Origin: a virus | Lineage: Duplodnaviria; Caudoviricetes | Virus record (IMG/VR): IMGVR_UViG_3300037067_011302 | Coordinates: 1 to 64,000 of that record | Length of the DNA stretch: 64,000 nt | Direction: 5' to 3' (one strand) | Shown: positions 2,755 to 46,200 of the stretch, piece after piece | Numbering within the stretch: the first letter of the stretch is position 1 | How the letters are laid out: each line of letters opens with the position of its first letter | Position numbers and translations under genes: made by a program | The notes under the pieces: model-generated | Seen by the model: only the letters and a program-made list of their open reading frames with translations | Told to the model about the DNA's origin: nothing | Databases searched by the model: none

Positions 2755-4516
2755 CGACCGTCAAGTCAGACGCACGTTTTTTCATAGGCAGTCCGTCCGG
2801 ACCGACAACAAGCCATTCATGATTTGCCGAACACGTAAATGTTGAACCGTTGACTTTTATTCTGTATGCACCACGTCGTTTTGACGACACAACGTTGATG
2901 ACTTCACGTTTTGACCCATCACGTGCAATGACTCGATCACCTACTTTCACATCACGTAGTGCCGATGTCGTCAAATCTGACATCAAAACACGAGTCTCGG
3001 GCGACAAACACCTGTAGGTCGACAAAAAGCGAAAAAATTCAAGGTTCCACACGAGCGGGTCGAGTTCCGTGATCCCGAGGACGTAGTTCACCAACGATCC
3101 ACCTCCCGATCCTCGGCCACACCCAACGGTCGTCACTCTCCTCGCCAGGTCGATGATCTTCTTGTATGAGATGAAGTAGTCAGCGTTCTTCATCACCTTG
3201 ATCACGCCGAGCTCGACCTTCAGCCTGTCAACGTACTCCTGTTTCTTGTCGAATCCATGTTCAATCATTCCCTCCTTGCACAATCCGACCAGGTGATTGA
3301 ACGAATTCACGCCCTTTGGCACGAGCCTTTCAACTGCAAACTTCGGAGAGCGATCGGGTTCAATGTTTCCGATCACGTTGTGTGCAATGTCATACGTCCT
3401 CTCGACGGCCGCGCACACCTCCTCGTCATCATAGAACGAGGTTCCCTCCTTCGATCGCTCATACTCCTCCCAGATCTGTGCAGCGTTCTTTGGGTAGAGC
3501 TCACACTTGAGTTCGTCCCTCGACTTCGGCAGAGAATCCGGAGAGAACGTCTCGTAGTTCATGAAGCCGAGGCGCTTGTAGATCTCCCGATCTCGCCACA
3601 GTTCAGGACGATAGTAATGCGCATCACACGTGACCGTCAGCTGCTCCGTGATTCCTCTCCTTCTCACGAATTCAATGATCGAACGATTGACGAGGTTCTG
3701 TGCACCGAGCCGATTGAACTGCAACTCGAGGTAGAAGTCATTCCTGTCCTTCATGCAACCAGCGATCAGGTCGTAGCCGGCACCGACAGCATTCACGCAC
3801 CTGTCAAGCACCGCAGGATCGTCCAACATCGATTGGTCGAGCGCATCGAACTCAACGTCCTTGAACTCCTGGAAGACGTTGTACGCAAGGAGGCCTGACA
3901 CGCATGCTGATGACACGATCACCTCACCGGTCGAGGTCACGTCCCTCAACACTCGTGCATCAATCCTCGGAAAACGATAGAATCCATCAAGGTAGCCGCT
4001 GCTGACGGCCGAAAAGATCTTCAGGAGCCCTCCCTGCGTCTTCGGGAGCAGGACGAGGTGGTGGCGCCTGTTGACGGGATTGAATCGTTTGTTGGACTTC
4101 GATTCGCTCTCATTCTCAATCGTGAGAGCGTTCTTCATCTCAAGCTCTTCCTCGTCATCCTCTTCGTCGTCGGGCCTCTTCGCCTTCACCTTTGACTTCT
4201 TTTCAGCATTTGCTATCGCACGATCGGCGTCTGCAATCTCCTTGTCATGCTTCCACTTCTCGAGGTCAGGATGGAAGTACATCTCTACGCCTGGAATGTA
4301 GAGGAACGGCTTTTCGGGGTGCTTCTTGTTCCAGTCTTCAACCCACAGGACGGCATGTGGGTAGCTATTCATGTTGCCGTGCTCGGTGATCGCGTGAGCG
4401 TCGAGACCGTTCTCCATGCACCACGTGAAGTGCTCATCAGGGTACCCCAACCCATCGTAGGTCGAAAACATCGTGTGATTGTGAAGGCTGACGTATCGCG
4501 TTGGTTTTCTGCTCAT
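2717..4516 (-). CDS. dnaE: DNA polymerase III alpha, first piece: PHP domain plus N-intein (2717-3010)
   Basis: SLHNHT..S..DG, ITEHG, CDAHY, GRGSGGGSLV, RFL. Then CLSPETRV (block A) and TCSANHEW (block B), stop after ~97 intein residues. Confidence 0.93.
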   Translation of the reverse strand: MSRKPTRYVSLHNHTMFSTYDGLGYPDEHFTWCMENGLDAHAITEHGNMNSYPHAVLWVEDWNKKHPEKPFLYIPGVEMYFHPDLEKWKHDKEIADADRAIANAEKKSKVKAKRPDDEEDDEEELEMKNALTIENESESKSNKRFNPVNRRHHLVLLPKTQGGLLKIFSAVSSGYLDGFYRFPRIDARVLRDVTSTGEVIVSSACVSGLLAYNVFQEFKDVEFDALDQSMLDDPAVLDRCVNAVGAGYDLIAGCMKDRNDFYLELQFNRLGAQNLVNRSIIEFVRRRGITEQLTVTCDAHYYRPELWRDREIYKRLGFMNYETFSPDSLPKSRDELKCELYPKNAAQIWEEYERSKEGTSFYDDEEVCAAVERTYDIAHNVIGNIEPDRSPKFAVERLVPKGVNSFNHLVGLCKEGMIEHGFDKKQEYVDRLKVELGVIKVMKNADYFISYKKIIDLARRVTTVGCGRGSGGGSLVNYVLGITELDPLVWNLEFFRFLSTYRCLSPETRVLMSDLTTSALRDVKVGDRVIARDGSKREVINVVSSKRRGAYRIKVNGSTFTCSANHEWLVVGPDGLPMKKRASDLTVDDVLYTYHYDHC

Positions 4517-5489: not shown

Positions 5490-6494
5490 TCAGCCGATCG
5501 GAATGTTTGAAATCACTCCCTGTTTGTGCCAATACAACGCCAACTTCCTCAGTCCTTCGTTGAGCTGAACCTTCGGCTCCCACTTCAAGAACTTCTTGGC
5601 GATTGAAATGTCAGGACACCGTCGTGTGGGATCGTCGGAAGGAAGTCGTTGGTTCTGCACCACGAGCTCCACTCCGAACATCTTTGAGACTCTTTCTGCA
5701 AGTTCAAGCACCGTGAACTCGTTTGGATTGCCGAGGTTGATCGGCGAACCGTAGTTCGTCTCTGCCGACGCCACAGCGGTGATTCCGTCAATGAGGTCGT
5801 CGACGTAACAGAAGCTGCGCGTTTGACTGCCGTCGCCGTAGACCGTGATCGGAGCACTGTTCCCTGCCTGCTTGATGAAGTTGCTGATCACGCGACCATC
5901 ATCGGGATCAATGTGCGGTCCATACGTGTTGAAGATCCTCACCACGCGGACGTCAACGCCCATCTTGAGGTACGTGTGACACAGCGACTCTGCGCTCTTC
6001 TTTCCAACGTCATAGACGCTGCGTTCACCCCAGGGATTGACGTTCCCCCAGTATGACTCCGGTTGTGGCGACACGAGTGGGTCTCCGTAGACCTCTGACG
6101 TAGATGCATGAACGACGATTGCCTCGTGTGCACAAGCAATGTTCAACACGTTCATCGTGCCATCAAAACACGTCCTCATCGTCTCGAGCGGCAGTGCTTG
6201 ATACCTAGGAGGTGATGCGGGACAGGCAAAATTGTAGATGACGTCAATCTTGTCGGAAGCACCTGCAAGGAGCGGTAAGTCATGAATGCGTTCATACATC
6301 TTATTGTAATTGACGATGTCACATTCAATAAAATTGTACAATGACCTTCGTTGATTCAATTTCTTGACGTGTGGACTGTCTCGCCGCGACGAACAAAAGT
6401 TATCGATGCCGATGACCCGATCACCTGCCGTCAAGTGACGAAGCGCAATGTGACTGCCCAAAAATCCGGTGACTCCAGTGACAACGACGATCAT
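5490..6494 (-). CDS. UDP-glucuronate decarboxylase-like NAD-dependent epimerase/dehydratase
   Basis: TGVTGFLG, ACPASP, ASTSEVYG, YDVGK, RIFNTYGP, GDGSQTRSFCYV, DDPTRRCPDI. Confidence 0.92.
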   Translation of the reverse strand: MIVVVTGVTGFLGSHIALRHLTAGDRVIGIDNFCSSRRDSPHVKKLNQRRSLYNFIECDIVNYNKMYERIHDLPLLAGASDKIDVIYNFACPASPPRYQALPLETMRTCFDGTMNVLNIACAHEAIVVHASTSEVYGDPLVSPQPESYWGNVNPWGERSVYDVGKKSAESLCHTYLKMGVDVRVVRIFNTYGPHIDPDDGRVISNFIKQAGNSAPITVYGDGSQTRSFCYVDDLIDGITAVASAETNYGSPINLGNPNEFTVLELAERVSKMFGVELVVQNQRLPSDDPTRRCPDISIAKKFLKWEPKVQLNEGLRKLALYWHKQGVISNIPIG

Positions 6495-12568: not shown

Positions 12569-13240
12569 CTAGTCAAAGAGGCCATAGCCCCCAATGTTAA
12601 CCAATCCTATTTCATTATCAGCCTCAATCACGAGCTCTTTGTCACCGCTCTCAACAATGTCGATCCAAGTCTCAACGTACGACCAAGGCTCTAGGTCAAC
12701 GTAGTCGACGACGTTTCCATCGTCGTCCGGCATGTCCCAGTTCCAGTCCTCGTCAAACTTCACGCCGCCGGCAACGAGCGCATCGTACTGCTTCTTCGTG
12801 ATCTTCTTTTCTCTGTATTCACGCGCGATCGTCTTGACGAAGTCAAATCCAATCTTCTTCGTCGCGACCTCGTACGCTCGCATGACGTCCTCGTAGGGCT
12901 TGTTGGCACGGATGAGAAATTTCTCGTTCTTCTCGTGTCCAAATCCTCCGGCACCGACCGCGACGTGGAAGAGGAACTTCATCTTTGACTTCTTTGATGA
13001 ACTCCTTTCATCATGCGCTTTCTGCCTCGCAATGTTCTCTTCCATCCTCGTTTGGACTGTGACAGCAAAGCACTCATTGTAGTTGCGTCCATCATGAGGA
13101 GACTTCCAGTACTCTTCATCGTCAAGAAGATTAGACTCCGCGAGTCCCTCCTTGACGAGGATCCACCCACTTACCTTGAGATAGTTGCTTCGTGCTTTGT
13201 GGAGGTCTTCCTGTAAGACCACACAAGGTTTCTTTTTCAC
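12569..13240 (-). CDS. Hypothetical protein
   Basis: 223-aa ORF overlapping the stop of the upstream gene. Confidence 0.65.
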   Translation of the reverse strand: MKKKPCVVLQEDLHKARSNYLKVSGWILVKEGLAESNLLDDEEYWKSPHDGRNYNECFAVTVQTRMEENIARQKAHDERSSSKKSKMKFLFHVAVGAGGFGHEKNEKFLIRANKPYEDVMRAYEVATKKIGFDFVKTIAREYREKKITKKQYDALVAGGVKFDEDWNWDMPDDDGNVVDYVDLEPWSYVETWIDIVESGDKELVIEADNEIGLVNIGGYGLFD

Positions 13241-13806
13241 GTTGTCACCTCTTGAATGATCTGATCCCAGTCGCTCACTCGCTTCGTTCCGACAGTCATT
13301 GCGAATTCGTTGTCCTCATTCCAAGGCCTCGTCCACAACAACGCCGTCCCGCTTAAATTTCCACTGAGCCAGTCTGCACAGTTCTCCGCGAGGTCGTCGA
13401 TGATGAAATCTCCGCTGACGTATCGCTTCGTCCTCGTCATGACGATGCGCTCGTGAGGAACATTGAAGTACCTCTTGAGCCACTGCGTCCTCTCAAGGGC
13501 CCACGGAAGTGACTGCATCGGTGAGGTGACGATAACTACCTCAGCCTCCAACGAGAGCCTCCTGAGGCCATCCTGAGCCCCCGAGTACGGTATCATGCCA
13601 CTACACCATCCGCCCCTGGTGACGAGGTCAAAGAACTGTGCCTCGAGGTACTCGTACTTCAGGCACTCAAATGCGTTCCAACCTCTGACTTCGTCGACTG
13701 TGTGTGACATTCCCGTGCGTTCATTGATGAAGTCGATGCACGGCGTCATGAAGTCGGCGAGGATCCCATCACAGTCAACGAGCACACGCTTCTTATCCTT
13801 GATCAT
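13237..13806 (-). CDS. 5'(3')-deoxyribonucleotidase, HAD/NT5C family
   Basis: VDCDGILADF, IVTSP, K...GDFIIDD, PWN. Probable start ATG 13806. Confidence 0.88.
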   Translation of the reverse strand: MIKDKKRVLVDCDGILADFMTPCIDFINERTGMSHTVDEVRGWNAFECLKYEYLEAQFFDLVTRGGWCSGMIPYSGAQDGLRRLSLEAEVVIVTSPMQSLPWALERTQWLKRYFNVPHERIVMTRTKRYVSGDFIIDDLAENCADWLSGNLSGTALLWTRPWNEDNEFAMTVGTKRVSDWDQIIQEVTT

Positions 13807-13872
13807 GTGTTGATTGTCAACCATGTGTGCGCACAGTTCACTGAATGCATCGGAACGCAAAGTGATGTCAAT

Positions 13873-13911
13873 AAAACAAAAAGGATCCCAAGCGTAGCCT
13901 GCCTGGGACCC
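13873..13911 (-). terminator. Intrinsic terminator closing the protein plus ncRNA unit
   Basis: Minus strand GGGTCCCAGGC...GCTTGGGATCC hairpin followed by TTTTTGTTTT. Confidence 0.85.
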
Positions 13912-13943
13912 ATGTCTTTTTTCAACTTTTTAACGGTTGAACC

Positions 13944-14132
13944 GCCGATTCTTGAGAAGGGCACTGCACTTTTAATCCAGAAGATCAGCCCTTAGATGCG
14001 TCCGCTCTACCTTTGAACTACCGGGTCATTCTATCAAACCAGCTTTCGCGGTGGCGACCCAGGAGGGAATTGAACCCACATTGACGCACAATATTTCAGT
14101 CCTCTGGAACTCGATCAGTACCTCATTTCGAC
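13944..14132 (-). ncRNA. Circularly permuted tRNA-like RNA B (YrlA/Y-RNA-like); tRNA core 13997-14088
   Basis: Order on minus strand: TGCGTC, T arm (TTCAATT loop), CTGGGTC-G-CCA, linker, GACCCGG-TA, D arm GTTCAAAGGTAGAGC, GACGCA. Extended by TCCAGAGGA/TCTTCTGGA, GGTACTG/CAGTGCC and GTCGA/TCGGC helices. Confidence 0.85.
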
Positions 14133-14144
14133 TTAATAAACCTG

Positions 14145-14284
14145 TTGCAATAGCCTCAGGTTAACTGCCACCGTGCCTCTGCCAGTTGGGCTACTCCCCC
14201 ATAGTTCGGTGGGGGAATCAGGATTCGAACCTGAACCTTTCGGTGGTGTTGTGAGCATCAAGTTGAATCGTTCAACCTGTGCAA
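14145..14284 (-). ncRNA. Circularly permuted tRNA-like RNA A (YrlA/Y-RNA-like); tRNA core 14168-14246
   Basis: Order on minus strand: CCACCG, T arm TCAGG-TTCGAAT-CCTGA, TTCCCCC-A, short loop, GGGGGAG-TA, D arm GCCCAACTGGCAGAGGC, CGGTGG. Outer helices CAGGTT/AACCTG and TTGCA/TGCAA. Confidence 0.85.
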
Positions 14285-14293
14285 CTTGCTCGG

Positions 14294-15025
14294 TCACCCG
14301 AACAAGAATCTGAAGACCTGGGCGCCGACCTTCATCGGTTCCACGGTCCGTGAATTACATTCCTCACGTGCAAACTTCACCGCACGTTGGAGCTGCTCGA
14401 CACGGTCGAGCATCTGAGTGATCACCGTCGCCGGGAGCGCACCAGAAAACTTCACAGTCCTCCACGTGCCGACCGGCTTGTCCTCAAAGCCCTCCTTGAC
14501 CTGAGCTGCGTGCTTGTCGGTCGCCGGAGCAAGGACGAGAGGCGTAAACACCTTCTTCGTCCTGACGGTATCGTTCGGCTTTGACACGTAGGAGCCAACG
14601 TTTGGCTCGTAGGTCCACTCCTCCGACGGATCGAGGACGGGAAGCTTTGAGACGAACGTGTGAATGTCAACGAGCTTCTTCTCGAGGAAGAGCAGGTACG
14701 TGACAGGAACCGCCTTCGCGATCGTGACATCGCCGACGACGACGTCCGCTGAGGCAACACAGTTACCCCAATCCTTCGTCGCTGTGACGTCGAACAGGTC
14801 GACCATGACCTTCGTCACGTCCTTGATCAGGTCACTGACGTTGAGCTGAACCTTCGACGTCTCAGCCGGAAGCTGCTCACCCATCTCATCGTTGGGTCGA
14901 TATGCACGAGAGATGCCGGTCGTCAGTGCACCCTTCTGCATTTTCCGATAAGCTTCAGTGATGCCGACGTGGGCCTTGTTCTTGATTGCCTTCTCGACGG
15001 CGATAATTTGACACAACTTCGTCAT
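14294..15025 (-). CDS. Uncharacterised protein (MTKLxQIIAVEK type) directly upstream of the tRNA-like RNAs
   Basis: ATG 15025 with GAGGAAG RBS; VPVTYLLFLEK, LPVLDP, ATDKH.AQV, KFSGA, AVKFAREE. Resembles a conserved hypothetical I recall from bacteria and phages; accession not verified. Confidence 0.8.
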   Translation of the reverse strand: MTKLCQIIAVEKAIKNKAHVGITEAYRKMQKGALTTGISRAYRPNDEMGEQLPAETSKVQLNVSDLIKDVTKVMVDLFDVTATKDWGNCVASADVVVGDVTIAKAVPVTYLLFLEKKLVDIHTFVSKLPVLDPSEEWTYEPNVGSYVSKPNDTVRTKKVFTPLVLAPATDKHAAQVKEGFEDKPVGTWRTVKFSGALPATVITQMLDRVEQLQRAVKFAREECNSRTVEPMKVGAQVFRFLFG

Positions 15026-15105: not shown

Positions 15106-15531
15106 TCACTCAACGAGGTGTGCCCGTGGCTTGTAGTCTTCACTAAGCGAAATGGTGATCGTCAGCACGCCATCCTCGTGCTTTGCTCTGAGCGATGAAG
15201 CGTCGTAGCCATCGCGTGGTTGGAACTGACAGTGTTTATCAACACCCTTTTTCTTCCACGAAACATTGATCAAGTGTGCGGCCGACTTCACGATGATGTC
15301 CTGCTTCTTCACGCCTGGAAGTTCCAACTTGTACAAGAGATCGTCCTTCTCATCAAGATAACACTCAATAACAGTTTCCGGTTCAGACGGAGTCAATTGA
15401 CGGTGTTGTCGAAGTCGCTCACTCCATTCTTCAAGTTCAAGCACTCTTCTATTGTCACGCTTGATCTCTTCGCGAATACAAGTCCAACCCGAACCATTCC
15501 ACCCATTCCAACCAAACGTATTTCCGCTCAT
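15106..15531 (-). CDS. Small heat-shock protein (Hsp20/alpha-crystallin)
   Basis: LELPGVKKQDI...AKHEDGVLTITI; AAGGAG RBS. Confidence 0.85.
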   Translation of the reverse strand: MSGNTFGWNGWNGSGWTCIREEIKRDNRRVLELEEWSERLRQHRQLTPSEPETVIECYLDEKDDLLYKLELPGVKKQDIIVKSAAHLINVSWKKKGVDKHCQFQPRDGYDASSLRAKHEDGVLTITISLSEDYKPRAHLVE

Positions 15532-15605: not shown

Positions 15606-16229
15606 TCACCGCGAACGAGCGATCCAATTCTCTGCCGCCGCGATGAGCCTGACGTGCGCATGTTGCAGAATGCACCGCCAATCCTCGTCATGCAGCGGCT
15701 TGAGACCCAACACGTTCGTCAGGACCGACCAACGCTTTGGCCTACCGACTCGCAACAGTTCTGGATTGAGGATGAACAGCTTCATTGCCTCCGCAAACGA
15801 TTCGTCGATGTTGGGTTCGTACGATGACACCTGAGGCTCGTGCTTCCTGACGTCGTTCATGAGCCTCACGATCTCAACACGGCCCACTCGTCCGAGCTCC
15901 AACATATTCTGCACGTGGTGACCGACCTCGTGTGCAAGGACGCCAGGTGCCGTCAGGTCAGCCTTGTAGCCTGTGAACGACCAGCTGAATCCAGGCGTCT
16001 TGACGGGTGGAAGCGATGCCTTCAGGTTGACGTAGATCTGTCTCGTTCCCGAGTCATAGAAGCCCCTGCCCGTCCAGTTCTCATCGCACGTGCCTTCGGC
16101 GTGAGTGATGAGATCGGAGTAGTCCTCAAGTTCATTATGAATGAGGAACTCATCAACGTATTTCATCGCAACATCGAGCGCTGATGACTTGTCATAATCG
16201 TTCGGATCGACAATGATTGGCACAACCAT
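15606..16229 (-). CDS. Zincin-like metallopeptidase-domain protein
   Basis: AHEVGHH...ESFAE. Probable start ATG 16229. Confidence 0.65.
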   Translation of the reverse strand: MVVPIIVDPNDYDKSSALDVAMKYVDEFLIHNELEDYSDLITHAEGTCDENWTGRGFYDSGTRQIYVNLKASLPPVKTPGFSWSFTGYKADLTAPGVLAHEVGHHVQNMLELGRVGRVEIVRLMNDVRKHEPQVSSYEPNIDESFAEAMKLFILNPELLRVGRPKRWSVLTNVLGLKPLHDEDWRCILQHAHVRLIAAAENWIARSR

Positions 16230-16266
16230 GATCTGATCAGACCACGGCCGTGTCGACGAATCACCG

Positions 16267-16638
16267 TCAATATCCGGACGTGATGCGCTCGACGTTCGTG
16301 CGACCCTTCTCGAGGTAGACGTCGACGAGCTCATCGAGCGTGATACCGGCGAACATCAACGACTCAAAGTAGAGGTGCAGCACGTCGACCATCTCCTCGA
16401 GGTATGCGTCCCTGTCGACGTCGTTGATCTCAGTCACGCGGTGCATCTTGACGTTCTTGAGGTGTTGGTTCGCCTCGAACAATTCCTTCATGATGTGAAA
16501 CGTGAGCGACTCGAGGAATTGTTGACCGCTCTTCGACTTGATGTCGACAGGATCAGTGGGAAAATTTCGCTCCTTCTGCAACAACTTGACGAACTCTCGT
16601 TGCTGGTCCCACAGTGTCTTTAGGCGATCTTCGTCCAT
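16267..16638 (-). CDS. All-alpha NTP pyrophosphatase (dimeric dUTPase/MazG-like)
   Basis: ELFEA...K.H...EEMVDVLH...YLEK...NVER. Start ATG 16638. Confidence 0.8.
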   Translation of the reverse strand: MDEDRLKTLWDQQREFVKLLQKERNFPTDPVDIKSKSGQQFLESLTFHIMKELFEANQHLKNVKMHRVTEINDVDRDAYLEEMVDVLHLYFESLMFAGITLDELVDVYLEKGRTNVERITSGY

Positions 16639-45200: not shown

Positions 45201-46200
45201 GGCCCAACTTACGCGCGTACACAGACGCCTGAGCAATCTCTTTGACCGTGAGCTGGCCGAAGTGAGCGACGTTCTGCAACGCCTTCGCCATGTCCTTTCC
45301 GATCAACTTCTGGTCAATGTCAAACGCCTTGCCGAGCTCGAGCGTCTGCTTCGTCATGTCGAGGAACACCTTGTTCATCGGCTGACCCATCGTCAACGCA
45401 CGTTGGCCGATCGCACCCATCTGCTCATTGGTGACGCCGAGGCCCTTCTGGAACCCCATGAGTGCGCCGCCATTCTCAACGAACTCATTCTTCAGGACGC
45501 TGAATGTGGCGCCCATTCCCTCGGCGGTCTCACGCACCGCCTTGATGCGATCGTGCATGAATCCAAACACTCTGAACGTGCTGAGGCCGGTCGCCTCGAA
45601 TCCCTTGAACGATTTCGATGTATCGAGGATCGCCTTTGCACCCGCGGTGCGTAGGTTACCGAACGACTTTCTCACGTCCTCAATCGCCTGAGCGAGCTCG
45701 TTCATTCCGCCGCCTGATTGAGCTGCGATGCCGACGAGCTTCTTGAGCATGTGAAGTGGAGCCGCCAGGATCGCGGCGCCGATGTTGAAGATCGACTTCG
45801 CGGCCTGTGCGGTGAAGCCGACGAATCCCTTTCCGAGTGCAGTGACGTTTCGCAGACCCTGCCTGAAGCCGTTCATTGCAGCCGTCGCAACGATGAACGC
45901 TGGATGGACCTTCTTCAGCGTCGTTGCCGATAACTCCGTCATCCTGTTCGACAGTGCCTTGGCGCTGACCGTCGACTTGCCTGCCTCCTGTTGCAGTTCC
46001 TTCAACTTTGACGTGTCAATGTTTCCGAGCTTCTTTGACATCAACTCATCGACCGACTTCACGAGTTCCTTGAGCGAACCCGACTGAACGTCGAACGACT
46101 TCTCAAGTCCCTTCTGCATCGCGAGCATCTGATCCGTCAGAGTGTTCAACTTCGACGTCAACTCGATCTGCATCGTCAAATCTTTTGCTTTCGAGGCCAC
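42235..46200 (-). CDS. Tail tape measure protein
   Basis: 1321 aa, Ala/Gly-rich and helical, with hydrophobic segments and periodic W/F; position in the tail module. Confidence 0.8.
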   Translation of the reverse strand: MASKAKDLTMQIELTSKLNTLTDQMLAMQKGLEKSFDVQSGSLKELVKSVDELMSKKLGNIDTSKLKELQQEAGKSTVSAKALSNRMTELSATTLKKVHPAFIVATAAMNGFRQGLRNVTALGKGFVGFTAQAAKSIFNIGAAILAAPLHMLKKLVGIAAQSGGGMNELAQAIEDVRKSFGNLRTAGAKAILDTSKSFKGFEATGLSTFRVFGFMHDRIKAVRETAEGMGATFSVLKNEFVENGGALMGFQKGLGVTNEQMGAIGQRALTMGQPMNKVFLDMTKQTLELGKAFDIDQKLIGKDMAKALQNVAHFGQLTVKEIAQASVYARKLGLELDKIVGTLSAFETFDSAAENAAKLSQTFGVQIDAFKMMEAQNPAEQIEALRKSFRAAGVDASKFSRQQLALVAQTTGLDAATAKQAFSMQNAGASYDSIKRKSEAAAKKQMTQEEAMSKLADSIERLVMSGGGQLGSFWDMFVKGFFGGIQSSKEFMTLMFSIKQALSMVYMQGIRLGKAFANMPSIKSFFGGLAEFFNPKKMQEMVGGCVTILSDGKKSVAEKMEGMRGEFSKYFNKQKGAFDNIVNGAKEFGLQFSKALSGIIRWVSDKVADGLQAIADLVTGKKKLAVGGAASGALGFLEQFFGPLIDSLKYAWNRLKGPLEELARKIWDKFVEFIKSPRVSKLLKKILPWAVGILFGPAAIQAAIGAIITAGPLIINAITGLFTGGGAVGAFSKAASLFGKILGSSLGKGVGIAGAVIALSTNIDTVFDKFESSVKTRCGETEGTIGLSVGGVANALTLGLLPDSTIESISIASAEFAGKVLKKLEKCFGPGFSESFGTYLREELNLLREVGNAIKAIFTGDTAEISDSVVAVGEKIIDVLVSAIVFTIKGIPRVITKAVELGLLFTEKFYEVMSKVCEKLGDIPILGYLFKLIGLIYKGAMYAFRGIKIFVRMLGLAFSEAVDWLSEKLGPTIEEFKIAFSKINEKLAQGAQEIADAFMAAGRAIGRAFTACYEAAVQAWSWIKDVFSSVCKWFDDYVVTPIGNAFETVWETIKKIFSWENIKKFFKGVVNNVIAPFEEVLPGVREKMLAAAAESKEAMSQEYEVQSPSKWSQRIGSRIVEGLGLGIKDMPDVMKDSTADTTSMFESILGIDSASSAISNLENLENLNNVSSQLSGMSDAVTSIAASSAQLIGNINSGALKEAMNAVKQMVKVVNEMDDALSDDTLNKFNVKAKLEKVATSLGLGAKAEYTIKNKAVNIKLNLNITMDAGQVEKVMIMRSSSIIRQRLNFATTGDTAGQRGEPALPGAYQSSVADITKSSS

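What the first reader, a model, noticed from the sequence alone, without database searches (positions are those of the whole stretch)
13873..15025. Uncharacterised protein co-transcribed with two circularly permuted, anticodon-less tRNA mimics: candidate Ro60-independent RNP system
Seen: within about 10 nt of the stop of 14294-15025 a ~350-nt structured region begins and ends at a strong terminator. It holds two tRNA folds with canonical U8/A14, GG D-loops and TTCRA T-loops. In both, the 3' half precedes the 5' half, the acceptor stem is closed by a linker, and the anticodon loop is replaced by a long interrupted helix formed by the RNA ends. The halves pair only within each unit (GGGGGAG/TTCCCCC; GACCCGG/CTGGGTC). 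Established: this topology is that of bacterial YrlA Y RNAs, normally encoded beside Ro60/Rsr; RNA B starts with GTCGAAATG, resembling the Ro-binding strand as I recall it. No TROVE/Ro60 gene is in these 64 kb. Inference: the upstream protein is the RNA partner (YTGA recurs in the outer-stem region: GGTTGAA, ACTTGAT, ACCTGAG, TACTGAT, GACTGAA, GGCTGAT), forming an RNP that displays tRNA elbows, e.g. as decoys for tRNA-targeting defence nucleases or to capture host Ro60/PNPase.
Basis: partly seen in the sequence, partly recalled or inferred. Interest (0 to 1): 0.92.

Follow-up and report, generated by a model that had tools for sequence, protein, structure and literature searches.

The report
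Double tRNA-mimic RNA beside DUF7873 gene
This phage carries an unstudied protein gene (DUF7873) followed by a folded RNA of about 410 bases with two back-to-front tRNA look-alikes. The same pair recurs in very different phages and bacteria, and its RNA handle differs from that of the known Ro60/Y-RNA particles. It therefore probably marks a second, undescribed kind of tRNA-mimic RNA-protein particle.

Summary
On the minus strand, the DUF7873 gene (15025-14294) is followed 8 nt later by two circularly permuted, anticodon-less tRNA-like domains: A at 14286-14127 and B at 14136-13952. A strong terminator follows at 13911-13873.

The gene-RNA pair is conserved:
- 82 of 85 homologous loci have the RNA just downstream on the same strand.
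- These include cultured phages of Gordonia, Arthrobacter, Rhodococcus, cyanobacteria, Rhizobium, Vibrio, Klebsiella and Ralstonia.
- Covariation supports every helix of domain B (35 of 35 pairs) and the cores of both domains.

The heads resemble YrlA Y RNAs, but the stalks lack the Ro60-binding motif GNCGAAN0-1G. They carry their own conserved loops instead: AUCNA and UUAAACG in B, and UNA every 6 nt in A.

In one bacterial class, all 8 strong hits of the domain B model lie beside DUF7873. Ten of 11 weaker hits lie beside Ro60, and all 11 keep the Ro60 motif. Some genomes hold both types.

Most phage records with DUF7873 that were searched (30 of 34) encode no Ro60. DUF7873 is therefore the likely cognate protein. 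This is inferred; there are no binding or expression data.

The "GTCGAAATG" resemblance to the Ro site is a chance, unconserved match.

This scan has already met the same module on other DNA (243 notes in at least 145 genomes). I found no paper or Rfam family that describes it.

The parts
14294..15025 (-). DUF7873 protein gene (243 aa, ATG at 15025, stop TGA at 14296-14294)
   Evidence: Pfam PF25283, E 3e-97, profile positions 1-242 of 244. 5284 homologues and 2253 cluster representatives at 50% identity. No match in PHROGs, NCBIfam, PADLOC or PDB sequences.
14127..14286 (-). RNA domain A: a long interrupted stalk plus a permuted tRNA-like head
   Evidence: Model R2: 85.2 bits, E 2e-15, full length. 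In the 56-sequence alignment the T, acceptor and D stems are 97-100% paired with compensatory changes, and the stalk is 60-75% paired.
14168..14246 (-). Head A core. Order: anticodon-stem 3' strand, variable loop, T arm, acceptor 3' strand TTCCCCC, linker ACCGAACTAT (14210-14201), acceptor 5' strand GGGGGAG, U8, D arm, anticodon-stem 5' strand
   Evidence: Read from the sequence and found by my scanner. The D arm is nearest to tRNA-Leu in 30 of 37 relatives, and the discriminator is mostly A.
14247..14286 (-). 5' stalk strand of domain A, with U-N-A triplets every 6 nt (TTGAA, TTCAA, CTTGAT, GCTCA)
   Evidence: Family consensus cTnAnnnTnAnnnTnAnnntnA. Window match TCAACTTGATGCTCA at 14266-14252.
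13952..14136 (-). RNA domain B: stalk helices P0 and P1 plus a permuted tRNA-like head
   Evidence: Model R1: 63.6 bits, E 1e-14, full length. In the 64-sequence alignment 35 of 35 pairs show compensatory change and 94.2% of cells are paired, against 36-44% when the partners are slid. Rfam YrlA gives 23.9 bits at 13975-14106.
13998..14087 (-). Head B core: T arm 14079-14063, acceptor 3' strand CTGGGTC 14062-14056, G-CCA and linker 14055-14028, acceptor 5' strand GACCCGG 14027-14021, D arm 14018-14004
   Evidence: Read from the sequence and found by my scanner. The tertiary Levitt pair 15-48 covaries in relatives (A-U 24, G-C 13, none mismatched).
14109..14115 (-). Conserved 5' internal loop of stalk B (AUCGAGU; family consensus aUCnA)
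   Evidence: T 98%, C 100% and A 98% conserved in 64 sequences. Window ATCGA at 14115-14111.
13967..13975 (-). Conserved 3' internal loop of stalk B (UUAAAAGUG; family consensus UUAAAcG)
   Evidence: The UU, AAA and G positions are 94-100% conserved; the position before G is C in 70-90%. Window TTAAA at 13975-13971.
13873..13911 (-). Intrinsic terminator (11-bp stem, 7 G-C pairs, then TTTTTGTTTT)
14124..14132 (-). It lies at the A-B junction, is not conserved, and does not fit GNCGAAN0-1G.
   Evidence: For contrast, see the Ro60-side RNAs.

Best explanation
The locus is one member of a widespread gene-RNA module. It consists of the DUF7873 gene followed on the same strand by one structured RNA of about 410 nt, ending at a terminator.

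Shown:
- The RNA has two domains. Each is a long helical stalk, closed by the RNA's own flanks, that carries an anticodon-less, circularly permuted tRNA-like head.
- In each head the T arm is followed by a 7-bp acceptor stem closed by a linker, and then by the D arm.
- The heads are of the same kind as those of YrlA Y RNAs.
- The stalks are not. They lack the Ro60-binding motif and carry their own conserved loops.
- Those loops occur only in copies that sit beside DUF7873.

Inferred:
- DUF7873 binds these stalks, as Ro60 binds the YrlA stalk. This would give a Ro60-independent ribonucleoprotein that displays two tRNA-shaped heads.
- One head (A) looks like tRNA-Leu.
- The heads would recruit or occupy tRNA-recognising host factors such as RNase P, the CCA-adding enzyme, modification enzymes, synthetases, or tRNA-directed defence or decay enzymes.
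- The 7-bp acceptor stems, and the frequent NCCA just after them, suggest that RNase P nicks the linker, as reported for Mycobacterium smegmatis YrlA. That would leave a two-piece head with a CCA end.

The output of the particle is unknown.
For: 1. Synteny. The domain B model R1 hits within 900 nt downstream, on the same strand, in 82 of 85 homologous loci. The domain A model R2 gives full-length hits in 56 loci, starting a median of 46 nt after the stop codon, and A and B always abut. The pair also holds in distant relatives at 29-40% protein identity: Pam2, RHph_TM30, Vibrio D497, Klebsiella FBKp24 and Ralstonia phiRSL1. It holds in six of seven bacterial MAG contigs with downstream sequence.

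2. Specificity. In five complete phage genomes, R1 matches only at the DUF7873 locus, apart from two weak core-only hits (27-32 bits).

3. RNA structure. Domain B has 35 of 35 pairs with compensatory changes and 94% of cells paired. The cores of domain A are 97-100% paired. The Levitt pair covaries.

4. The stalk motif tracks the neighbouring protein. In 121 genomes of one bacterial class, all 8 strong full-length R1 hits (84-99 bits) lie directly downstream of DUF7873. Of 11 weaker full-length hits (46-56 bits), 10 lie beside a TROVE gene. All 11 Ro60-type RNAs (the weaker hits) carry GACGAAUG or GCGAAUG, whereas the DUF7873-side RNAs carry AAUCNA and CUUAAACG. Genomes G003, G038, G073 and G078 hold both types.

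5. GNCGAAN0-1G occurs in only 2 of 56 A domains and 2 of 64 B domains, below the 4-5 expected by chance. It is absent from the window.

6. Ro60 is absent from the own record, from GodonK, Racecar and NiceHouse, and from 26 of 30 further DUF7873 phage records. In two phages that have both proteins, separate YrlA-like hits lie in the loci fetched around the Ro60 gene.

7. [quoted passage not shown] NCCA follows the acceptor stem in 19 of 37 A domains and 15 of 37 B domains.
Against: - There are no expression, processing or binding data. No RNA run was listed for this sequence.
- The argument for binding rests on gene order and on the motif swap alone.
- The protein family is not basic (median pI 6.6, range 4.7-9.6) and has no recognisable RNA-binding fold.
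- Two related loci (L048, L049) have the gene without the RNA.
- One genome keeps the RNA next to a DUF7873 gene broken by stop codons (G101).
- DUF7873 co-occurs with Ro60 more often than expected in bacterial genomes: 6 of 10 against 23 of 111 (odds ratio 5.7, p 0.012), and 4 of 5 MAGs. A functional tie to the Ro60 pathway therefore cannot be excluded. Genome size and completeness confound this count.
- An earlier check of the same module in this scan priced the binding claim at only 22 in 100.
Confidence: 0.55

Rival explanations
1. The RNAs are ordinary YrlA-type Y RNAs that work with the host's Ro60/Rsr. DUF7873 is only a neighbour, or an accessory of the Ro60 pathway.
For: - The RNA has the YrlA topology and gives sub-threshold Rfam YrlA matches.
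- A YrlA-like RNA beside the Ro60 gene of phage Bxz1 scores no better (32.5 bits against a gathering score of 69).
- R1 also detects Ro60-side RNAs over its full length, so the two types are related.
- TROVE is found in 4 of 5 MAGs and 6 of 10 class genomes that carry DUF7873.
Against: - The Rsr-binding motif GNCGAAN0-1G is missing from the window and from the family, yet is present in all 11 Ro60-type RNAs.
- Different loops are conserved in the stalk instead.
- Thirty of 34 DUF7873 phage records lack Ro60.
- In two phages, and in genomes such as G003 and G078 that hold both proteins, Ro60 has its own YrlA-like RNA nearby.
- From my own knowledge, only about 5% of bacteria have Ro60; in the controls, 2 of 14 genomes did.
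Confidence: 0.1
2. The RNA is matured by RNase P and 3' trimming into two-piece, CCA-ended tRNA-like molecules. These would be charged (head A by LeuRS) or otherwise used as tRNA surrogates, and DUF7873 would be a maturation or delivery factor rather than a scaffold.
For: - Both acceptor stems are 7 bp.
- NCCA follows the acceptor stem in about half of the copies, and C74 is 92% conserved in domain B.
- In the window, domain B reads G-CCA and domain A reads A-CC.
- The D arm of head A is nearest to tRNA-Leu in 30 of 37 copies and its discriminator is mostly A. From my own knowledge, LeuRS does not read the anticodon.
- M. smegmatis YrlA is cut by RNase P and receives CCA (PMC4201824).
Against: - CCA is not universal. 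Many copies read NCUG or NCUA, with linkers of 29-36 nt.
- Many linkers are only 6-9 nt.
- There is no anticodon, so the molecule cannot decode.
- There are no charging data.
- This reading does not exclude the ribonucleoprotein reading.
Confidence: 0.12
3. The structured region acts in cis as the 3' part of the DUF7873 mRNA. It would stabilise the message, or define its 3' end through RNase P as the mascRNA element does for MALAT1. It would have no function in trans.
For: - The RNA starts 0-50 nt after the stop codon in most loci, and 8 nt after it here.
- The sigma-70 consensus scan finds no promoter-like site in the gap.
- It always lies on the same strand and ends at a terminator.
Against: - About 400 nt with two complete tRNA-like tertiary cores and conserved single-stranded loops is far more than a stabiliser needs.
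- The sequence is conserved across phage lineages of very different hosts.
- The FBKp24 record annotates a promoter between the gene and the RNA.
- In some loci the RNA lies 200-500 nt from the gene, in one case (L012) with a tRNA gene between.
- One genome keeps the RNA beside a broken gene.
Confidence: 0.1
4. The RNA alone is a decoy or sponge for host tRNA-directed defence or toxin enzymes that recognise the elbow or acceptor end. DUF7873 would have a separate function within phage tRNA gene clusters.
For: - 47 of 106 loci have tRNA genes within 1.5-3 kb, and in actinophages the module sits inside tRNA arrays.
- From my own knowledge, tRNA arrays are discussed as counter-defence elements.
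Against: - This phage has no tRNA gene in 184 kb yet keeps the module.
- The strict order, strand and spacing relative to DUF7873, and the stalk motif specific to DUF7873 neighbours, would be left unexplained.
- A mimic without an anticodon cannot decoy anticodon-loop nucleases.
Confidence: 0.08

Closest known systems
YrlA Y RNAs with Ro60/Rsr (Rfam RF02553; Chen et al. 2014, PMC4201824)
   Same: - Both have a permuted tRNA-like head: T arm, loop-closed acceptor stem, then D arm, with U8, A14, G18G19, the T loop and a covarying Levitt pair.
- In both, the stalk is formed by the RNA's 5' and 3' parts.
- Both are encoded next to one protein gene, and often two RNAs lie side by side (YrlA and YrlB).
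- Both occur in bacteria and in phages, often near tRNA genes.
- My domain B model detects Ro60-side RNAs over its full length.
   Different: - There is no GNCGAAN0-1G motif.
- The stalk has its own conserved loops.
- The neighbouring gene is DUF7873, not TROVE.
- Two full tRNA-like heads are fused in one RNA of about 400 nt.
- Rfam scores are 16-38 bits against a gathering score of 69.
[quoted passage not shown]
   Same: Both have a 7-bp acceptor stem, the feature that the authors tie to RNase P cleavage. In about half of the present family, CCA is already encoded after the discriminator.
   Different: Processing is not shown for the present RNA. The M. smegmatis RNA is bound by Rsr.
Two-piece (circularly permuted) tmRNA with SmpB (from my own knowledge)
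   Same: In both genes, the part that ends in the acceptor 3' strand and CCA precedes an excised linker and the acceptor 5' strand. Both are tRNA mimics without an anticodon arm that work with a dedicated small protein.
   Different: - ARAGORN finds no tmRNA here.
- The D arms are canonical.
- There are none of tmRNA's pseudoknots, and I did not look for a tag reading frame.
- DUF7873 shows no match to SmpB.
SPFH/Band-7 modules with 'a novel tRNA-like molecule' in RNA-repair systems (Burroughs and Aravind 2016, Nucleic Acids Res 44:8525). I recall this from the abstract; the paper is not held here and I could not check it.
   Same: It proposes a tRNA-like RNA with a protein partner other than Ro60. 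In NiceHouse, its relative L052 and L040, a Band-7 gene lies 0.35-1 kb downstream of the RNA.
   Different: A Band-7 gene is adjacent in only 3 of 33 DUF7873 phage records and is absent from this phage's 184-kb record. I could not test whether their RNA is the same one.

Membership tests
YrlA / bacterial Y RNA (RF02553) | tRNA-like domain in permuted order: T arm, loop-closed acceptor-like stem, then D arm | tested here: met
   Sequence, scanner, covariation and the Rfam alignment.
YrlA / bacterial Y RNA (RF02553) | tRNA tertiary signature: U8, A14, G18G19, T loop, covarying Levitt pair 15-48 | tested here: met
   These positions are 91-100% conserved. The Levitt pair is A-U in 24 and G-C in 13 copies of domain B, with none mismatched.
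YrlA / bacterial Y RNA (RF02553) | Ro60/Rsr-binding motif GNCGAAN0-1G on the 5' strand of the terminal stem (PMC4201824) | tested here: not met
   Absent from the 440-nt window region. Found in 2 of 56 A domains and 2 of 64 B domains, below the 4-5 expected by chance. Positive control: all 11 Ro60-type RNAs have it.
YrlA / bacterial Y RNA (RF02553) | Encoded next to a Ro60 (TROVE) gene | tested here: not met
   No TROVE in the 184-kb record, which is about 54% complete. None in GodonK, Racecar or NiceHouse, nor in 26 of 30 further records.
YrlA / bacterial Y RNA (RF02553) | Score at or above Rfam's gathering threshold (69 bits) | tested here: inconclusive
   The window scores 23.9 and 15.6 bits. 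The YrlA-like RNA beside the Ro60 gene of phage Bxz1 also reaches only 32.5 bits, so the threshold does not decide membership.
YrlA / bacterial Y RNA (RF02553) | Bound by Ro60/Rsr | not testable with these tools
   This needs immunoprecipitation or a gel-shift assay.
DUF7873 (PF25283) | Full-length profile match above the curated cut-off | tested here: met
   325 bits against a cut-off of 27, covering profile positions 1-242 of 244.
   R2 85.2 bits and R1 63.6 bits, both full length. The motifs are present in the window.
Canonical tRNA gene | Cloverleaf in standard order with an anticodon loop | tested here: not met
   ARAGORN finds none. The Rfam tRNA model gives 17.3 bits against a threshold of 29, and only over part of the model.
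Permuted (two-piece) tmRNA | Detected as tmRNA, with a tag reading frame | tested here: not met
   ARAGORN with tmRNA search finds none. Rfam gives no tmRNA match in the window.
SPFH/Band-7-associated tRNA-like RNA system (Burroughs and Aravind 2016) | Band-7 gene in the same neighbourhood | tested here: not met
   No Band-7 gene in the 184-kb record. It is adjacent in 3 of 33 related records. The paper is not held, so the identity of its RNA is not tested.

The most novel reading that the evidence does not exclude
DUF7873 is a non-homologous counterpart of Ro60. It would bind the stalks of its own two-headed Y-like RNA through the AUCNA/UUAAACG loops and the 6-nt periodic UNA repeats. The result would be a second family of Y-RNA-type particles, spread by phages across many host phyla. 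Its paired tRNA-shaped heads, one Leu-like and possibly nicked to a CCA end, would recruit or block tRNA-handling, RNA-decay or defence enzymes during infection.
Probability: 0.4. Interest if true: 0.85.

Novelty: new variant of a known kind. Interest (0 to 1): 0.75.

Why it matters
Y RNAs are known only as partners of Ro60, and what their tRNA-like module is for remains an open question.

This locus belongs to a very large protein family: over 5000 proteins and 2253 clusters at 50% identity. In it the same kind of tRNA-mimic head is attached to a different stalk and a different, unstudied protein, and it is doubled. The module occurs in cultivable phage-host pairs (Gordonia, Klebsiella, Ralstonia, Rhizobium, Vibrio, cyanobacteria), so the question can be tested directly.

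The natural contrast within single genomes gives ready-made specificity mutants: Ro60 beside a GNCGAAUG stalk, and DUF7873 beside an AUCNA/UUAAACG stalk.

If the particle is real, it would give DUF7873 a function. It would also explain a recurrent unannotated gap, sometimes mis-annotated as small ORFs or a suppressor tRNA, in many phage genomes.

Tried and rejected
- Protein fold. The AlphaFold model has pLDDT 85.6. Foldseek against PDB and BFVD gives nothing below E 1e-3 with a meaningful TM-score. VIA-align wide gives only generic helical-bundle matches at Z 8 or less. The ESM Atlas returns only DUF7873 clusters and weak unnamed or DIP1984-like neighbours at TM 0.45-0.6. No function can be read from the fold.
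- Protein sequence libraries. PHROGs, NCBIfam, PADLOC and PDB sequences give nothing. Scanning 40 family members against Pfam at E up to 5 shows no recurrent second family.
- The look-up of sequencing runs listed no RNA holder.
- RtcB is absent from the own record. Band-7 is not a general neighbour.
- The search for related loci on genome contigs with the diverse alignment failed because no stretch was conserved enough. A single protein worked.
- RNAalifold on the MAFFT alignment of domain A recovered only the core. The stalk had to be taken from one sequence's minimum-energy fold and then tested by pair counts.
- The sigma-70 consensus scan found no promoter between gene and RNA. This is weak evidence, because a T4-like phage uses other promoter types.
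- Papers. None holds 'DUF7873'. Searches on YrlA, phage and tRNA mimics found only Ro60-linked work or other RNA families. The Sim et al. 2020 review and Burroughs and Aravind 2016 are not held.
- Rejected reading, dimeric-tRNA artefact (T arm of one tRNA plus D arm of the next): the acceptor strands pair only within each unit, and no tRNA genes exist in this record.
Full report
**What is in the window.** Genes here run on the minus strand. ORF 15025-14294 encodes 243 aa and matches Pfam DUF7873 end to end (E 3e-97). It matches nothing in PHROGs, NCBIfam, PADLOC or PDB sequences.

Eight nucleotides after its stop codon a structured region begins. It runs to a strong intrinsic terminator, with the stem at 13911-13883 and a T run to 13873.

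The region holds two units in which the tRNA 3' half precedes the 5' half.
- Unit A: T arm 14234-14218, acceptor strands TTCCCCC and GGGGGAG joined by ACCGAACTAT, D arm 14191-14175.
- Unit B: T arm 14079-14063, acceptor strands CTGGGTC and GACCCGG joined by a 28-nt linker that starts G-CCA, D arm 14018-14004.

ARAGORN calls no tRNA or tmRNA in the window or in the whole 184-kb record. Rfam has nothing at gathering thresholds. At relaxed thresholds it gives a full-length YrlA match on B (23.9 bits) and a partial one on A (15.6 bits).

**The genome.** The window is the first 64 kb of a 184-kb IMG/VR virus record, estimated 54% complete. That record has no TROVE/Ro60, no RtcB, no Band-7 and no tRNA genes.

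**The gene-RNA pair is conserved.** DUF7873 is a large family with a very constant length: 5284 hits and 2253 cluster representatives at 50% identity.

It occurs in 75 cultured-phage records. Their hosts include Gordonia, Arthrobacter, Rhodococcus, Pseudanabaena, Rhizobium, Vibrio, Klebsiella and Ralstonia. In GodonK, Racecar and NiceHouse the gene sits inside tRNA gene arrays, followed by an unannotated gap of 400-530 nt. Rfam YrlA gives sub-threshold hits in the gaps of GodonK and Racecar (38.2 and 32.9 bits).

A simple scanner looks for a T arm, a 7-bp acceptor stem closed by a linker, U8, A14 and a D stem. It finds one or two units 50-450 nt downstream on the same strand in most of the 92 loci, and almost none on the opposite strand. 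It also finds them in the distant Pam2, RHph_TM30, D497, FBKp24, phiRSL1 and Ziko loci.

I built covariance models for domain B (R1) and domain A (R2).
- R1 hits within 900 nt downstream in 82 of 85 loci with enough sequence.
- R2 gives 56 full-length hits.
- A starts a median of 46 nt after the stop codon, and A and B always abut.
- In five complete phage genomes R1 matches only at the DUF7873 locus, apart from two weak core-only hits.
- Six of seven bacterial MAG contigs with downstream sequence carry the same arrangement.
- Exceptions are L048 and L049, where a terminator and another gene follow directly.

**RNA structure.**
- Domain B (64 sequences): all 35 pairs show compensatory changes and 94.2% of cells are paired, against 36-44% with slid partners and 58% with shuffled partners. 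This supports two stalk helices (P0, P1), the anticodon-stem equivalent, and the T, acceptor and D stems.
- Domain A (55 distinct sequences): the T, acceptor and D stems are 97-100% paired. The anticodon-stem equivalent is 75% paired with much covariation. The long stalk is 60-73% paired, with conserved U-A pairs alternating with frequent mismatches.
- The tertiary Levitt pair 15-48 covaries perfectly in B (A-U 24, G-C 13) and is A-U in 35 of 37 copies of A.

Conserved unpaired nucleotides are as follows.
- In B: aUCnA between P0 and P1 on the 5' side, UUAAAcG on the 3' side, and UnA between the head and P1.
- In A: U-N-A every six nucleotides, four times on the 5' strand, with matching blocks on the 3' strand.

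Two further points concern the heads.
- The D arm of head A is nearest to tRNA-Leu in 30 of 37 loci, and its discriminator is mostly A. Head B has no clear isotype, and its discriminator is mostly U.
- NCCA follows the acceptor stem in 19 of 37 A units and 15 of 37 B units, and many linkers are only 6-9 nt.

**Relation to Ro60 and YrlA.** Chen et al. 2014 define YrlA RNAs as encoded beside Ro60, with a tRNA-like module and a 5'-strand motif GNCGAAN0-1G. They also report that the M. smegmatis RNA, which has a 7-bp acceptor stem, is cut by RNase P and receives CCA (PMC4201824).

The motif is absent from the window and from the family. It occurs in 2 of 56 A domains and 2 of 64 B domains, where chance predicts 4-5. 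The window's GTCGAAATG has two bases, not zero or one, before the final G, and it lies in an unconserved junction.

Ro60 is missing from GodonK, Racecar and NiceHouse and from 26 of 30 further DUF7873 phage records. Only 2 of the 16 records that are at least 90% complete have it.

In two phages with both proteins (RHph_TM30 and a 341-kb uncultured phage), separate YrlA-like hits lie in the loci fetched around the Ro60 gene. The Ro60 phage Bxz1 has no DUF7873. Its YrlA-like RNA beside Ro60 matches only the head part of R1 and reaches only 32.5 bits of Rfam's YrlA model. Rfam's threshold is therefore not decisive.

**The most informative test.** I searched 121 genomes of the bacterial class that contains one DUF7873 MAG.
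- DUF7873 occurs in 10 of them and TROVE in 29.
- R1 gives 8 strong full-length hits (84-99 bits). All 8 lie 200-480 nt downstream of a DUF7873 gene.
- R1 also gives 11 weaker full-length hits (46-56 bits). Ten of them lie directly beside a TROVE gene.
- Aligned to the same model, all 11 Ro60-type RNAs carry GACGAAUG or GCGAAUG on the 5' stalk strand and UUGUCGUC on the 3' strand.
- The DUF7873-side RNAs carry AAUCNA and CUUAAACG at the corresponding places.
- Four genomes hold both types.

The heads are thus of one kind, and the stalk signature changes with the neighbouring protein. That is what one expects if each protein binds the stalk of its own RNA. This is the main ground for naming DUF7873 as the partner, and it remains an inference.

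**Caveats.**
- No expression or binding datum exists. No RNA run was listed, and the complex predictor was closed.
- The protein family is not basic (median pI 6.6).
- The protein model is confident (pLDDT 85.6): four long helices plus long beta hairpins. It matches no solved or viral predicted fold convincingly.
- DUF7873 genomes carry Ro60 more often than others in the class sample (6 of 10 against 23 of 111, p 0.012). Four of five MAGs also carry it. Genome size and completeness confound this. Still, a functional link to the Ro60 pathway, or a preference for hosts that have Ro60, is not excluded.
- One genome keeps the RNA beside a DUF7873 gene that contains stop codons.

**Novelty.** No paper in the searchable library mentions DUF7873. 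[quoted passage not shown]

As I recall, that abstract links SPFH/Band-7 modules to 'a novel tRNA-like molecule'. The paper is not held here. A Band-7 gene is adjacent in only 3 of 33 DUF7873 phage records.

The scan itself has met this module many times on other DNA (243 notes in at least 145 genomes). Those follow-ups reached the same general reading. A later check there priced the binding claim at 22 in 100.

My own figure is higher, at 0.55. The reason is the stalk-motif contrast between Ro60-side and DUF7873-side RNAs within one bacterial class and within single genomes.

**Verdict.** The locus is a typical member of a widespread, undescribed gene-RNA module whose RNA is a two-headed relative of YrlA with a non-Ro stalk. 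A ribonucleoprotein formed with DUF7873 is the best-supported mechanism, but it is unproven.

Noticed in passing
L098 3018-3097 (Klebsiella phage FBKp24, record positions 46041-46120): The record annotates a 'tRNA-OTHER, tRNA-Sup-TTA' here. It overlaps the permuted head of domain B (scanner 3070-3148; R1 hit 3051-3169). It is probably a mis-call of the tRNA mimic rather than a suppressor tRNA.
   Followed up: partly
L100 2729-3197 (Ziko gp125, gp126); L097 2931-3026 (D497_0061); L001 2536-2664 (GodonK gp151): Small hypothetical ORFs are annotated over or beside the conserved RNA region downstream of DUF7873. They are likely spurious gene calls.
   Followed up: no
L001 5755-6283 (GodonK): Rfam finds a full-length tmRNA (90 bits). 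The record annotates only a 'tRNA-His' at 6143-6204 within it.
   Followed up: no
G101:C7:198224-198945 and 197838-198012: In one bacterial genome the DUF7873 gene is interrupted by several stop codons, yet the domain B RNA downstream still scores 84.5 bits.
   Followed up: no
L048 and L049, 2227-2900: These DUF7873 homologues (about 50% identity) are followed by a terminator-like hairpin and another coding gene. They have no tRNA-mimic RNA and are the only clear exceptions among 85 loci.
   Followed up: partly
Class sample of 121 genomes around G003: DUF7873 and TROVE/Ro60 co-occur more often than expected: 6 of 10 against 23 of 111 (odds ratio 5.7, Fisher p 0.012). Genome size and completeness may explain part of this.
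   Followed up: partly
window 15106-15531 (-), 13237-13860 (-), 15606-16334 (-): The neighbours of the module are an Hsp20/alpha-crystallin-like protein (E 5e-5), an NT5C-type 5'-deoxyribonucleotidase (E 1e-20) and a protein with a weak zinc-metallopeptidase motif (E 1e-3). None recurs beside DUF7873 in the related loci whose annotation I read.
   Followed up: no
L003 1130-2002 (NiceHouse gp121); also L052 and L040 records: A Band-7/SPFH gene lies 0.35-1 kb downstream of the RNA in three related phages. This may connect to the SPFH-linked tRNA-like RNA that Burroughs and Aravind mention, as I recall it. It is not general (3 of 33).
   Followed up: partly
window 13933-13947 (-): A small extra hairpin (around GGCGGTTCAACCGTT) lies between the end of domain B and the terminator. 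I did not examine it in relatives.
   Followed up: no
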